A DNA stretch of 64,000 nucleotides from Thalia democratica (taxonomy: Eukaryota): positions 28,954,001 through 29,018,000 of the forward strand of contig OZ241833.1 in NCBI GenBank assembly GCA_965202585.1, written 5' to 3'. Made by a program: the position numbers. Of the stretch, positions 9,001-12,000 are shown in pieces (the stretch's first letter is position 1; each line of letters starts with the position of its first letter).

Positions 9001-12000
9001 AATAACTTTATATTCTATATTAAAAAAACAGCTAAAACTTTTATTTAATAATAATTCTTCTAGCATATAACGAGCTAACTGGTGTAAAAGCCCCAACAAA
9101 CGAAAAGGACTTACAAGTTTCAAGTAGTTAGTTAATAACTTTGATATTTTATTAATAAGGTCAATCAGTAAAGATTATTTTGAAACTGATATTATAAAAT
9201 AAATACACTAATCGCTAAGGAAACAGTTAAATATATTTTTAGATAAAAAATGTAAGATTTAAATTCTAATTATTAAAAAAAAAGGTTAATAAGTATAAAA
9301 AGTTTTAAAAACAAATAGTTATTGTTATGTTTTACTTTGATACTAAAAAAAAAGATTGAAAGTAAACTAGTGTATATAACATGTTTTAAACAATAAAGTA
9401 GTCTGTAAAATAAACCAAAATTAGTTTCTATAAAAGCTGATTGAATAAAAAGTGATATAATTAATAAAAACAAAACATGAAAAATCTTACAAATTAAGAG
9501 TCAGTACAATATTTCTTTAATTTAACACACAGATATTTTTTACTTATTAAAAAACTCTAGGAAAGTCAATTGCAAAGCCACAGAAGATTTCATACGCCCA
9601 AACCGAAAGAAAAATTCAAAATACAAAAGAAGACATTAAAAGTTCTTCAAACAGACTCCCACTAAATGCTGACAATTCCACATATTTAAATTCTCAAACA
9701 CAAAACTCGCCAGGTCCCAGCGTCGCCAAAGATACTGACTCAAGGGACGTTTCTACCGACGAGATGAAACCACAGGGATTGTCACCCACCCTGAGCAACG
9801 ACGCTGAGTTCCTGCTGGCTCGTTTCTTTCTCGAAAACACCGACCCAACCCACGCCGACGTCAAGCTCCTGTCCGAAGCGACCGGGACGAGCGAAACGTC
9901 GCTGAGGAGCTGGTTGCGCGAACAAGAGCTGAAGAGGAGCGGCAACTGCGCACTGAGCGCAAACCAGGTCCCGTTGGCCGTTTTGCGCTTCAACTCGAAC
10001 CCGAAACCGACGCTGGCCGAGTACGAGGCTTTGAGCGGCGAGCTGGGAGCGGAAAGGCTGGCGGTCTTTCGGTTTTTCAGGAACAGAAGAAACAACCTCG
10101 GGGTGAGCAGCTCGCACAGGTACTCGTTTGAATGCAGCGGAAAGGAAAGAGAAAAGTTGGAAGAGCCTTATGGAAAGTGCTGCGACGGCAAAAGGCTGTC
10201 AGTTGAAAAACTGATAGAGGTGGCAAAGGAGATCGGTGTTGACGAGCTAAAAGTAGAAAATTATTTTTGCAACAAAATGGTGAACTTTCGTAAAGAAAAA
10301 AGGCTGCAAAGTAATAGCGGAACAAAGACAGCAAATAAGTACCAAGGTCTTCCAAACACTGCACTTAATTCAAATGTTCAAAGTTTGTTGGGCAATGAAC
10401 CTTCGACTTTAGTAATTACTAGCGCACCCAATCAAATACTTCAAAATCAACCAATTATAAACATTGGACCAAATTACGCTTTAAATCCTTACAACACACA
10501 CGTAACAAATCAAATTTACAGTAACTGGATTGCTAATAACTACTATCATCAAAATTTAAAAAAATATTTTAACTTTTTGAATCAATTGAACCGAGCATCA
10601 TTATACAGTCTGCTGTCTCGAGACAGGTCAAATTCAAACGGCCAGTACTTGCGAAACGTGAGAAATTACCAACAACTCGGTGAAAGTGCCGGTAACAGCC
10701 AAGTGAAAAACAACCGAGCAGCACACCACTGTTGTAATTTTTCTTCAAAGCTTAGTTAAAAAAGAAGATAATATTTAGTGGCTCACGTAAACTACAGTGT
10801 ATTTTTTTTTTCCGACGGATAAAATGGTAGGACCTCCCTGACCAACGCAAAATTATATTAACAAACTTATCAAAACAGTGCTAACTAACTATTAATTTTG
10901 ATAAAAATATGAAAAAGTTTTAATCAATATTGTTTGTTAATTTTAATTCTCTTTAACCTCTTTATTGTCAGTTTCTGAATATTAGCTTTACGAAATCATA
11001 TTACGCTAAAATACAAATTTTATAAGCTTTGTCTAAATACTTGTTTGTCTATTTTCATTTACAAATATTGAGTCATTCTTTACTAATTTACTTAATAAAA
11101 TTTAACGGCAAGAAAAACTTAAAGGCATTTTATTTACTTAATTAAATTATTTTAAAGTACAGTGTATTACTTTACGAACTTAACCAATAACTTATAATAC
11201 TTTAGAAAATTTTATCAAAGTTTAAAACTTACAGTAATAAAATATTTCTATTGAGGCAAGATTTAACAACTAAACAAAATGTATTGTTTTCTCTCCTGAT
11301 ATATAGACTATGTACAGTAAATATATTTACATTTTATTTCAAACTATTATCAATCAGTAACTACACTACAACAAAAATTTATAAATTGTTTTTGTGTTTT
11401 TTAAATTTGCTAGAAATGTTGGTTTAAATGAGGTAATAAGTGTAAGTTTGGTTTATTGTTAAAGCAGTTTATAAAAAGATCATTTTATGTAAAAAAGAAA
11501 TATAAGTATGTTGACTTTCATAGAAATCTAAGTCATTTTAACAAAGTGTTTCTCATCTTTAGTACAATAGCTGATTAATAAAATTAAAGTACTGTTTACT
11601 TTATTATTTCAAAAAAAGGTGGGAGGTTGTTTAGTATAGTCTTGACATAACTGTTTAGTATAACTTTTTTTTTTAATTAAAAAATAAAATATTTCCCGAA
11701 CATTATAACAGTACTAATAAGCATTTCAACAAACTTCCTCTTAATTTCAGCACAGCCTTAAATAGATAAATTAAAAACTAACCGATGCTTTAAAACAAAT
11801 GTTTCTTTCGTAACTAAACATTTTCTATTGAATAATTTTAAAAATCATTTGAAACTTGAAAAACAAGAGTTCAAAAGTACTATAAACTTATTTTACGTTT
11901 CTTAGACTTTTGCTAAAAACTTATGTTAAGATACTTGTGTTGTTTGTATTTAAAGTAAACTACTACTTTTTAAACTAGGGGTAAGACGTGGCCCACGGAG

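What the first reader, a model, noticed from the sequence alone, without database searches (positions are those of the whole stretch)
9561..10759. Homeobox paralogs diverge several-fold faster than REV3L exons in the same duplicated block, including recognition-helix residues
There are ~28 amino-acid differences over ~315 aa between the homeobox copies, against ~6 over 312 aa for the co-duplicated REV3L exons of identical age. Changes hit helix 3: HD2 VFRFFRNRR vs VFLFFRTRR (the N51-equivalent), and HD3 YFCNK vs YFRNK (position 50, the classic specificity residue). Three indels in the main exon (3, 21 and 6 nt) all preserve frame, and the copy gained a new 16-aa tail. This suggests the ORF is being kept open while the protein evolves fast.
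Basis: partly seen in the sequence, partly recalled or inferred. Interest (0 to 1): 0.65.

Follow-up and report, generated by a model that had tools for sequence, protein, structure and literature searches.

The report
Truncated duplicate of a triple-homeobox gene
A recent tandem duplication copied a three-homeodomain gene together with the last exons of the DNA-repair gene REV3L, and the cut-short homeobox copy appears to be drifting under weakened constraint rather than evolving adaptively, which is an ordinary fate for a young duplicate.

Summary
The five co-duplicated REV3L exons differ at 6 of 311 codons (Fisher p=2e-5).

- Homeobox dN/dS is 0.41 (bootstrap 0.25-0.70), or 0.57 when calibrated on the local mutation spectrum. 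It never exceeds 1.
- The 5.3-fold dN excess splits into 2.2-fold higher silent divergence (dS 0.108 vs 0.049, p=0.034) and 2.4-fold higher omega (p=0.10, not significant).
- Recognition helices are hit at the average rate (5 of 37 changes, 4.9 expected).
- A is the derived copy. It is cut at the duplication boundary, so its "new tail" is read-through into junction DNA. It lost a family-conserved C-terminal helix, and the 21-nt deletion removed a conserved N-terminal motif.
- B keeps the family residue at 16 sites, A at 6. B also lost an Arg found in 10 of 10 homologs.
- The open frame is modestly more than chance (no stops P~0.02; in-frame indels P~0.007-0.03), but the locus was picked because it was open.

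Verdict: an ordinary young tandem duplicate of a fast-evolving, unnamed triple-homeodomain family. A third fragment (13927-14356) was missed.

The parts
9561..10759 (+). Homeobox copy A, main exon. It holds three homeodomains, at roughly 9770-9949, 9932-10111 and 10121-10300. It is truncated at the 3' end and carries a 21-nt deletion in the N-terminal motif.
   Evidence: ORF. Pfam Homeodomain 44.9 bits against a cut-off of 22.9. Alignment to B. W48-equivalent residues 117, 171 and 234 of the exon protein.
10720..10759 (+). A-specific tail and stop. This is read-through into junction DNA after A-B homology ends.
   Evidence: Homology ends at A 10719 / B 30598. The alignment shows unrelated sequence beyond that point.
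29422..30806 (+). Homeobox copy B, main exon. This is the parental, full-length form, with a conserved C-terminal helix.
   Evidence: ORF. Pfam Homeodomain 39.6 bits. AlphaFold2 gives three three-helix bundles (helices 85-129, 139-184, 199-258; pLDDT about 80-96) and a helix at 438-459. P0011 is 60% identical to the tail.
13927..14356 (+). Copy C, a 430-nt fragment of the homeobox exon. It runs from HD3 helix 3 into the C-terminal region and has no complete homeodomain.
   Evidence: 94.0% identical to A and 94.9% to B, without gaps. Translation. Three-way comparison.
7961..8149 (-). REV3L exon R1, copy A.
   Evidence: AG/GT boundaries. Best solved match is the DNA polymerase zeta catalytic subunit, 7lxd_A, E=2.7e-14.
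7424..7563 (-). REV3L exon R1b, copy A.
   Evidence: Splice sites and frame are conserved with B 26591-26730.
6830..7121 (-). REV3L exon R2, copy A.
   Evidence: Polymerase zeta hit, E=2.8e-5. Boundaries.
6362..6541 (-). REV3L exon R3, copy A, with a cysteine-rich motif.
5860..5997 (-). REV3L terminal exon R4, copy A, with its stop codon.
25051..27788 (-). REV3L exons R1-R4, copy B: 27600-27788, 26591-26730, 26002-26293, 25538-25717 and 25051-25188.
   Evidence: for coordinates; polymerase zeta, E=2.6e-6, for R2.
31444..31809 (-). Single-copy upstream REV3L ORF segment with the polymerase motif. It shows that homeobox copy B lies antisense between REV3L exons.
   Evidence: Pfam DNA_pol_B, E=2.6e-12. 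ORF. There is no second copy in the window.
10955..12849 (.). Segment X. It follows copy A here and recurs at 17280-19185, ahead of block B. It marks the tandem unit boundary.
   Evidence: 96.8% identity over 1909 columns.

Best explanation
This is a young tandem segmental duplication in an AT-rich genome that I do not take for human. There are three units, and the middle one is mostly deleted. The duplication copied the last five REV3L exons together with a triple-homeodomain gene that lies antisense between REV3L exons.

The unit boundary falls inside the homeobox ORF. So the downstream copy A lost about 70 C-terminal codons, including a family-conserved helix, and reads into junction DNA instead.

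Since then both copies have evolved under purifying selection that is weak for B and weaker for A, without positive selection. The larger amino-acid divergence relative to REV3L reflects two things. First, this lineage-restricted family is intrinsically loosely constrained, whereas the polymerase zeta catalytic C-terminus is among the more conserved proteins. Second, silent divergence in the REV3L exons is about two-fold lower.

Shown: the duplication, the truncation, the rates, the asymmetry and the homeodomain folds. Inferred: that A is still (weakly) selected, and that the genes are expressed.
For: Architecture.
- Self-BLAST gives A 4301-10719 = B 23479-30598. X 10955-12849 = 17280-19185, and C 13927-14356 is a third fragment.
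- B is contiguous with the single-copy REV3L upstream exons.

Rates.
- Homeobox: Sd 25, Nd 39, dS 0.108, dN 0.044, omega 0.41 (CI 0.25-0.70).
- REV3L: Sd 10, Nd 6, dS 0.049, dN 0.0084, omega 0.17.
- Non-coding: 313/3756 = 8.3%.
- Homeobox synonymous divergence does not differ from non-coding divergence (p=0.34).
- Homeobox nonsynonymous divergence is about half of it (odds ratio 0.49, p=2e-5).
- Calibrated omega is 0.57 for the homeobox exon and 0.26 for REV3L.

Open frame.
- P(no stop)=0.018 and P(25 or more synonymous)=0.02 in 5000 neutral replicates.
- 3 of 3 indels are in frame, against 9 of 48 (or 9 of 30 non-slippage) in non-coding DNA.

Asymmetry.
- Of the 37 homologous differences, 33 have at least 5 homolog residues. 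B matches the family more often at 16, A at 6, and 11 are ties (binomial p=0.052).
- The 21-nt indel is a deletion in A that removes 'KLTDTPP' of the motif seen as (S/T)xD/ExPSTSK in 5 homologs.
- The C-terminal helix is conserved in P0010, P0011 and P0012.
- A has S->P inside HD3 helix 1.

Family.
- It is loosely constrained. The best relatives among 1.84 billion representatives are only 39-44% identical, with 19 hits at E<=1e-3.
Against: - B, the supposed constrained parent, carries R->L at HD2 position 47, where 10 of 10 homologs have R. It also carries E->A and E->K at sites where 4-5 of 8 homologs keep E.
- Amino-acid differences are not depleted in the homeodomains (15 vs 16.6 expected), and the codon positions are hit evenly (22/20/22). 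Both are what neutral decay would give.
- The relative-rate test with C shows no significant asymmetry (A 10 vs B 6, p=0.32).
- 'A neutral, B omega 0.1-0.3' fits the N:S counts just as well.
- The indel-density argument is weakened by copy C. It cannot encode a homeodomain, yet it has 0 indels where about 7 were expected.
- The P values are post hoc, because the locus was picked for its open frame.
- No expression data are available, and the 5' end is unresolved. A has TAA at 9548-9550 and its first in-frame ATG at 9764.
Confidence: 0.5

Rival explanations
1. Copy A, and perhaps the whole A block, is already a dead, neutrally decaying pseudogene. Its frame is open only because the duplication is young.
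For: - A lacks the conserved C-terminal helix and part of the conserved N-terminal motif.
- A has a stop just upstream of the candidate acceptor and no upstream in-frame ATG.
- A carries more derived residues than B (16 vs 6).
- The observed N:S of 39:25 equals the expectation for 'A neutral plus B at omega 0.1-0.3' (38-41 N of 64).
- Differences are spread flat over the codon positions (22/20/22).
- At the REV3L F/Y site, A is derived relative to yeast Rev3.
Against: - With about 12.5 synonymous changes on A's branch, about 2.8 stop-creating changes are expected. That gives P(0) of about 0.06, derived from the class fractions.
- At least the 21-nt deletion is on A's branch and is in frame. 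The chance per indel is 0.19-0.30.
- Jointly this gives about 0.01-0.02. That is modest, and it is inflated by how the locus was chosen.
- The A-block REV3L exons keep every splice site and frame, with 0 indels.
Confidence: 0.28
2. One reading: copy A (or both copies) is retained and evolves adaptively. On this view, changes at recognition-helix positions (HD2 47/51, HD3 50) retune DNA specificity.
For: - Changes do lie at positions that classically contact bases.
- The frame is open despite 64 substitutions and 3 indels.
- Omega is about 1.0 in the N-terminal 74 codons (3 S, 11 N).
Against: - Omega is below 1 overall and is 0.31 in the homeodomain part.
- There is no enrichment of changes in helix 3 (5 vs 4.9 expected).
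- HD2 position 51 (T,T,T,N,V,N,N,T,K,E) and HD3 position 50 (K,K,S,Y,S,I,A,K) vary freely among homologs.
- The N-terminal part is predicted to be disordered (pLDDT 30-38), so omega near 1 there is expected.
- The new tail comes from the breakpoint.
Confidence: 0.1
3. The contrast is largely an age artefact. Ectopic gene conversion has repeatedly homogenised the GC-rich REV3L exons, or selection acts on both REV3L cassettes. Either way, the two gene pieces do not share the same effective divergence time.
For: - REV3L dS of 0.049 is half the homeobox dS of 0.108 (10/212 vs 25/248, p=0.034). It is also below the non-coding value of 8.3%.
- Divergence per 200 nt ranges from 1.5 to 19.5% along the block.
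- The N:S ratios of the two genes do not differ significantly (p=0.10).
Against: - Low divergence is confined to the exons for R1, R1b, R2 and R3, with introns at 10-19% directly beside them. That looks more like selection than conversion tracts.
- Even after scaling by dS, homeobox omega remains about 2.2-2.4 times higher.
- This rival explains only part of the contrast and is compatible with the best explanation.
Confidence: 0.07
4. Assembly artefact: the 'paralogs' are divergent haplotypes or a misjoin, not tandem copies.
For: About 8% non-coding divergence could be allelic in a highly heterozygous organism. The order of sub-segments differs between the blocks.
Against: - Three copies with different end points lie in one uninterrupted stretch. 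The only N run, 37226-37325, is outside the blocks.
- A and C end at different positions inside the ORF and are each followed by segment X. That is the signature of tandem units.
Confidence: 0.05

Closest known systems
Fast-evolving, tandemly duplicated homeobox genes: eutherian ETCHbox/LEUTX, rodent Rhox, and lepidopteran and spider tandem homeobox duplicates. Sources are PMC8208926, PMC10246821, PMC1562416, PMC9977156 and PMC10726417. Only the search listing and abstract openings were seen.
   Same: A lineage-restricted homeobox gene copied by local tandem duplication. Protein divergence is much higher than in neighbouring conserved genes, the paralogs diverge asymmetrically, and truncated or decaying copies sit beside intact ones.
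   Different: - This protein has three divergent homeodomains in one exon plus conserved N- and C-terminal motifs.
- It shows no specific sequence affinity to the PRD class or to any named class.
- There is no evidence here of positive selection.
- Only two and a half copies are present.
- The gene is nested antisense in REV3L.
Multi-homeodomain proteins: the DUX4 double homeodomain and ZHX/HOMEZ.
   Same: An array of homeodomains in one chain. The best fold matches are tandem engrailed homeodomains (6m3d_C, E=3e-3) and the DUX4 double homeodomain (5zfy_A, target-normalised TM-score 0.58). The Atlas listed a ZHX3 cluster at 0.77, which is only a lead.
   Different: - Sequence identity is 19-23%, and none of at least 500 fold matches reached E<=0.001.
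- There was no Homez or zinc-finger Pfam hit at E<=1.
- In HD1, position 51 is Glu.
- HD2 position 51 is not conserved in the family.
REV3L / DNA polymerase zeta catalytic subunit (the comparison gene).
   Same: Exons R1 and R2 match yeast Rev3 in 7lxd_A and 6v8p_A (E=2.7e-14 and 2.8e-5). The upstream exon matches Pfam DNA_pol_B.
   Different: Here the last five exons exist as two intact cassettes 17 kb apart on the same strand. I did not look for reports of such an arrangement beyond.

Membership tests
Homeodomain (PF00046) | Sequence match above Pfam's gathering score | tested here: met
   A scores 44.9 bits and B 39.6 bits against a cut-off of 22.9, with 2 and 3 stretches. The family profile hits 40 solved homeodomain chains at E<=0.01, the best at 5e-5.
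Homeodomain (PF00046) | Three-helix bundle fold | tested here: met
   The AlphaFold2 model of B has three helix triplets (85-129, 139-184, 199-258), with 10-residue block pLDDT of 77-96 over residues 81-260. Single homeodomains match with target-normalised TM-score 0.7-0.79. This is a prediction, not a solved structure.
Homeodomain (PF00046) | Canonical helix-3 residues W48, F49, N51 and R53 (residue roles recalled) | tested here: inconclusive
   - HD1 reads W-L-R-E, with no N51.
- HD2 reads F-F-R-N-R-R in A and F-F-R-T-R-R in B.
- HD3 reads Y-F-C/R-N-K-M.
- In homologs, HD2 position 51 is N in only 3 of 10.
Homeodomain (PF00046) | Sequence-specific DNA binding | not testable with these tools
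   This needs a protein-binding microarray, SELEX or EMSA.
ZHX/HOMEZ multi-homeodomain proteins | C2H2 zinc fingers and/or a Homez-type homeodomain (PF11569) | tested here: not met
   There was no such Pfam hit at E<=1 in the exon proteins. The only link is an Atlas feature score of 0.77. Unseen upstream exons cannot be excluded.
Gene under positive (diversifying) selection | dN/dS above 1 overall, in a domain, or on a branch | tested here: not met
   Pairwise omega is 0.41 (CI 0.25-0.70), calibrated 0.57, and 0.31 in the homeodomain part. It is 1.03 only in the disordered N-terminal 74 codons. Branch-site tests were not possible because no close orthologs were found.
Unprocessed (duplicated) pseudogene | Disabling lesions: premature stop, frameshift, or loss of essential parts | tested here: inconclusive
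   A has no stop or frameshift. It does have a 3' truncation, a 21-nt deletion in a conserved motif, and no upstream in-frame ATG. C is clearly a fragment.
REV3L / polymerase zeta catalytic subunit | B-family polymerase domain and C-terminal region most similar to Rev3 | tested here: met
   Rev3 is the best solved match for R1 and R2, ahead of polymerase delta. DNA_pol_B is found in the upstream exon.

The most novel reading that the evidence does not exclude
Copy A is a retained, expressed, truncated paralog. It keeps all three homeodomains but lacks the family's N-terminal motif and C-terminal helix, and it differs at base-contacting positions (HD2 47/51, HD3 50). It would then act as a competitor or re-targeted variant of B.

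In parallel, the two intact REV3L 3' cassettes might be used as alternative endings of polymerase zeta. In that case the block would be kept by selection on both strands.
Probability: 0.1. Interest if true: 0.55.

Novelty: new member of a known kind. Interest (0 to 1): 0.25.

Why it matters
This finding mainly serves as a caution. A several-fold excess of amino-acid changes in one duplicated gene over its co-duplicated neighbour does not by itself indicate adaptive evolution. Here it breaks down into weaker constraint, a two-fold difference in silent divergence, and a breakpoint that truncated one copy.

Two by-products may be worth a note for whoever annotates this genome:
- an unnamed, lineage-restricted triple-homeodomain family with conserved terminal motifs, which has only 19 detectable relatives among 1.84 billion representatives;
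- a duplicated REV3L 3' exon cassette whose two copies are both intact.

Tried and rejected
- Word-indexed protein searches with B, whole and restricted to residues 124-300, found nothing. The search with relative P0004 found only itself and two unnamed ENA entries. So no names, no taxa and no close orthologs were obtained.
Names and sources of P0004-P0014 stayed unchecked.
- The Atlas gave only generic homeodomain clusters at 0.85 or below.
- The literature search for a REV3L-nested homeobox gene listed 10 of 54 papers, and none of the 10 contained 'REV3L'.
- Indel density as evidence of selection was rejected as unreliable. About 13 indels were expected and 3 observed (P=0.001), but the non-functional fragment C shows the same deficit (about 7 expected, 0 observed).
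- Using C as an outgroup gave counts too small to show asymmetry (10 vs 6, p=0.32).
- I considered assigning a 5' exon and start codon, but left it open without RNA data.
- Branch-site or codeml tests were not run, for lack of orthologs and of the program.
- Genome contigs (prokaryotes) and the phage, plasmid and E. coli collections were not searched, as they are irrelevant to a eukaryotic locus.
- Paper supplements were not consulted.
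Full report
**Setting.** The window is 25-30% G+C in most 2-kb bins, and I do not take it for human. Its one N run (37226-37325) lies outside the feature and was left alone. The organism was not identified. The presence of REV3L, an eIF2B-family gene and an OB-fold-plus-Tudor gene suggests an animal, but that is inference.

**Duplication architecture.** Self-BLAST shows the following matches:

| Block A | Block B | Identity |
|---|---|---|
| 4301-7842 | 23479-27030 | 90.1% |
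| 7954-8171 | 27593-27810 | 98.2% |
| 8155-8872 | 27908-28634 | 84.5% |
| 8864-10719 | 28720-30598 | 90.6% |

- Segment X follows A at 10955-12849 and recurs at 17280-19185 (96.8%).
- Segments 1415-3051 and 3195-4299 recur in swapped order at 20130-21752 and 19139-20204.
- A third, gap-free 430-nt copy C of the homeobox exon lies at 13927-14356, 94.0% identical to A and 94.9% to B.
- The layout [..H(A)] X [..C] .. X .. H(B) fits three tandem units with the middle one mostly deleted.
- B runs into single-copy DNA that holds the upstream REV3L exons, so B is the parental position.

**Genes.**
- *REV3L.* On the minus strand, five exons with AG/GT boundaries and consistent phases are present in both blocks. 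R1 and R2 match the polymerase zeta catalytic subunit best (7lxd_A and 6v8p_A; E=2.7e-14, 2.8e-5 and 2.6e-6). The single-copy ORF at 31444-31809 matches Pfam DNA_pol_B. These exons were searched and counted one by one. The joined (spliced) model was deliberately not built.
- *Position of the homeobox exon.* It lies on the plus strand between REV3L exons, so it is nested antisense. This assumes the flanking REV3L exons belong to one transcript, which is inferred.
- *Fold.* Pfam Homeodomain scores 44.9 bits (A) and 39.6 bits (B) against a cut-off of 22.9. AlphaFold2 on an alignment of 14 sequences gives mean pLDDT 58. Block values of 77-96 over residues 81-260 form three three-helix bundles. The flanks are disordered (pLDDT 28-45), and there is a C-terminal helix at 438-459 with pLDDT about 66.
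- *Fold matches.* These are tandem engrailed homeodomains, the DUX4 double homeodomain and single homeodomains. None of at least 500 matches reached E<=0.001. The family profile hits 40 solved homeodomain chains at E<=0.01 without any class preference.
- *Family.* phmmer over 1.84 billion representatives found 19 proteins at E<=1e-3. The best are 39% and 44% identical. The word-indexed searches found none for B and three unnamed 'ena' entries for relative P0004. The family therefore remains unnamed here.

**Observation check.**
- All quoted strings are present.
- Over the homologous exon there are 385 aligned codons, 37 aa differences, 10 gap codons in three indels (3, 21 and 6 nt) and 64 nt differences.
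- REV3L has 6 differences in 311 codons.
- 37/385 vs 6/311 gives p=2e-5.

**Decomposition of the contrast.**

| Measure | Homeobox exon | REV3L exons |
|---|---|---|
| Sd / Nd | 25 / 39 | 10 / 6 |
| dS | 0.108 | 0.049 |
| dN | 0.044 | 0.0084 |
| omega (NG86) | 0.41 (bootstrap 0.25-0.70) | 0.17 |
| omega (calibrated) | 0.57 | 0.26 |
| Differences by codon position | 22/20/22 | 7/2/7 |
| nt mismatch (MAFFT) | 60/1153 | 16/939 |

- Reliably aligned non-coding DNA has 313/3756 mismatches, with 200-nt windows ranging from 1.5 to 19.5%.
- Within the homeobox exon, omega is 1.03 in the N-terminal 74 codons, 0.31 in the 170-codon homeodomain part and 0.36 in the C-terminal 141 codons.
- The 5.3-fold dN contrast equals 2.2-fold in dS (p=0.034) times 2.4-fold in omega. 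The N:S comparison 39:25 vs 6:10 gives p=0.10.
- Homeobox synonymous divergence equals non-coding divergence (p=0.34). Nonsynonymous divergence is about half of it (odds ratio 0.49, p=2e-5).

**Is the open frame more than chance?**
- I placed 64 mutations at random using the block's own non-coding spectrum (5000 replicates from each copy). This gives 17.1 synonymous, 43.0 nonsynonymous and 3.8 stop-creating changes. P(no stop) is 0.018 and P(25 or more synonymous) is 0.020-0.025.
- Non-coding DNA has 48 indels with good flanks in 3.76 kb, and 9 of the 48 are multiples of three (9 of the 30 outside homopolymer slippage). So 3 of 3 in frame has P=0.007-0.027.
- Indel density looks depleted (about 13 expected, 3 seen). 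Fragment C shows the same depletion (about 7 expected, 0 seen), so I do not rely on density.
- All these P values are post hoc, because the locus was flagged for being open.

**Which copy changed?**
- *The tail.* A-B homology stops at A 10719. B continues for about 70 codons. P0011 is 60% identical to that stretch, P0010 and P0012 end with a similar helix motif, and the model folds it as a helix. So A's tail is breakpoint read-through and a conserved element was lost.
- *The 21-nt indel.* It is a deletion in A that removes 'KLTDTPP' of a motif present in 5 homologs.
- *Polarisation by family.* Reading the table for the 37 homologous differences, I dropped 4 rows with fewer than 5 homolog residues, and the 8 rows in A's non-homologous tail do not count. 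B matches the family more often at 16 sites, A at 6, and 11 are ties (p=0.052). P0004 and P0023 are 92% identical, so the homolog votes are not fully independent.
- *Polarisation by C.* Over the 429 nt shared with C, unique changes are A 10 (4 S, 6 N), B 6 (3 S, 3 N) and C 15 (6 S, 9 N). The relative-rate test gives p=0.32.
- *B is not pristine.* It has R->L at HD2 position 47 where 10 of 10 homologs have R. It also has E->A and E->K at sites where 4 and 5 of 8 homologs keep E.
- *Recognition helices.* Helix-3 windows hold 5 of the 37 differences (4.9 expected). The three 60-residue homeodomain windows hold 15 (16.6 expected, p=0.61).
- *The highlighted positions.* HD2 position 51 and HD3 position 50 vary among homologs.

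**Interpretation.**
- The best-supported reading is a young tandem duplicate of a loosely constrained family, with A truncated and more relaxed than B, and no sign of positive selection.
- The counts fit 'A neutral, B at omega 0.1-0.3' equally well (38-41 N expected of 64, 39 seen). Against full neutrality of A stand only the absence of stops (P about 0.06 on A's branch, derived fractions) and at least one in-frame deletion.
- I therefore put about 0.5 on weak selection on both copies, about 0.28 on A being already dead, and about 0.1 on adaptive retuning.
- A non-exclusive contributor is the halved silent divergence of the REV3L exons. This could reflect constraint on both cassettes or exon-centred gene conversion. 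'A neutral, B at omega 0.05' is not rejected for REV3L (P=0.13). At the F/Y site A is derived relative to yeast Rev3.

**Comparison and novelty.**
- Fast-diverging tandem homeobox duplicates are well known: ETCHbox/LEUTX, Rhox, and lepidopteran and spider expansions (PMC8208926, PMC10246821, PMC1562416, PMC9977156, PMC10726417). I saw only the listing and abstract openings.
- This locus works like those but belongs to none of them. I file it as a new member of a known kind.
- One search for a REV3L-nested homeobox gene listed 10 of 54 papers, none mentioning REV3L. I make no claim about what is or is not in print beyond that.

**Left unchecked.**
- names and taxa of the relatives (one search was off);
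- close orthologs;
- expression;
- the 5' exon and start codon;
- read-level support for the assembly;
- the closed collections metagenome contigs and viral contigs;
- paper supplements.

Noticed in passing
It has 143 homologous codons, running from HD3 helix 3 into the C-terminal region. There are no stops and no indels relative to A or B, despite 22-26 substitutions.
   Followed up: yes
window 5860-8149 (-) and 25051-27788 (-): The last five REV3L exons exist as two cassettes. Both keep every splice site, frame and stop. They differ at 16 of 939 nt, while adjacent introns are 10-19% diverged. Possible explanations are alternative 3' cassettes, constraint on both copies, or exon-centred gene conversion.
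   Followed up: partly
window 6400-7100, 7900-8100, 9720-10200, 34000-36000: Extreme compositional contrast. Exon cores reach 58-69% G+C per 100 nt in a background of about 25%. Within the homeobox exon, the homeodomain core is GC-rich and both ends are AT-rich.
   Followed up: no
window 46041-48221 (-): A 726-codon open frame with an RMI1-type N-terminal OB fold (E=2.7e-16) and a C-terminal Tudor domain (E=8e-5). They are separated by a long Asn/Lys-rich repetitive stretch, with internal repeats at 47119-47370. The architecture is TDRD3-like; that name is recalled.
   Followed up: partly
window 49148-50092 (-): A single-exon 314-codon open frame that matches the initiation factor 2B subunit family (PF01008, E=3e-67).
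   Followed up: partly
window 40662-41037 vs 41309-41691: An inverted repeat of about 380 nt at 96.9% identity, with arms about 270 nt apart. It overlaps a 94-codon ORF (40997-41281) and may be a mobile element.
   Followed up: no
window 27164-27273 / 27445-27551, and 27030-27593 vs 7842-7954: Block B carries about 450 nt more than block A just downstream of REV3L exon R1. The extra DNA contains a 110-nt inverted repeat (75% identity), as a small insertion might.
   Followed up: no
window 36110-36639; 42816-43467 vs 59033-60137; 22687-23346 vs 62055-62675: Further dispersed and tandem repeats (66-90% identity) that are unrelated to the duplication. They are probably interspersed elements.
   Followed up: no
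window 9548-9550 vs 29319: The 5' ends differ between the copies. A has TAA three codons upstream of the candidate acceptor, and its first in-frame ATG is at 9764, just before HD1. B's frame stays open back to 29265, with an ATG at 29319. The start codon of neither copy is established.
   Followed up: partly
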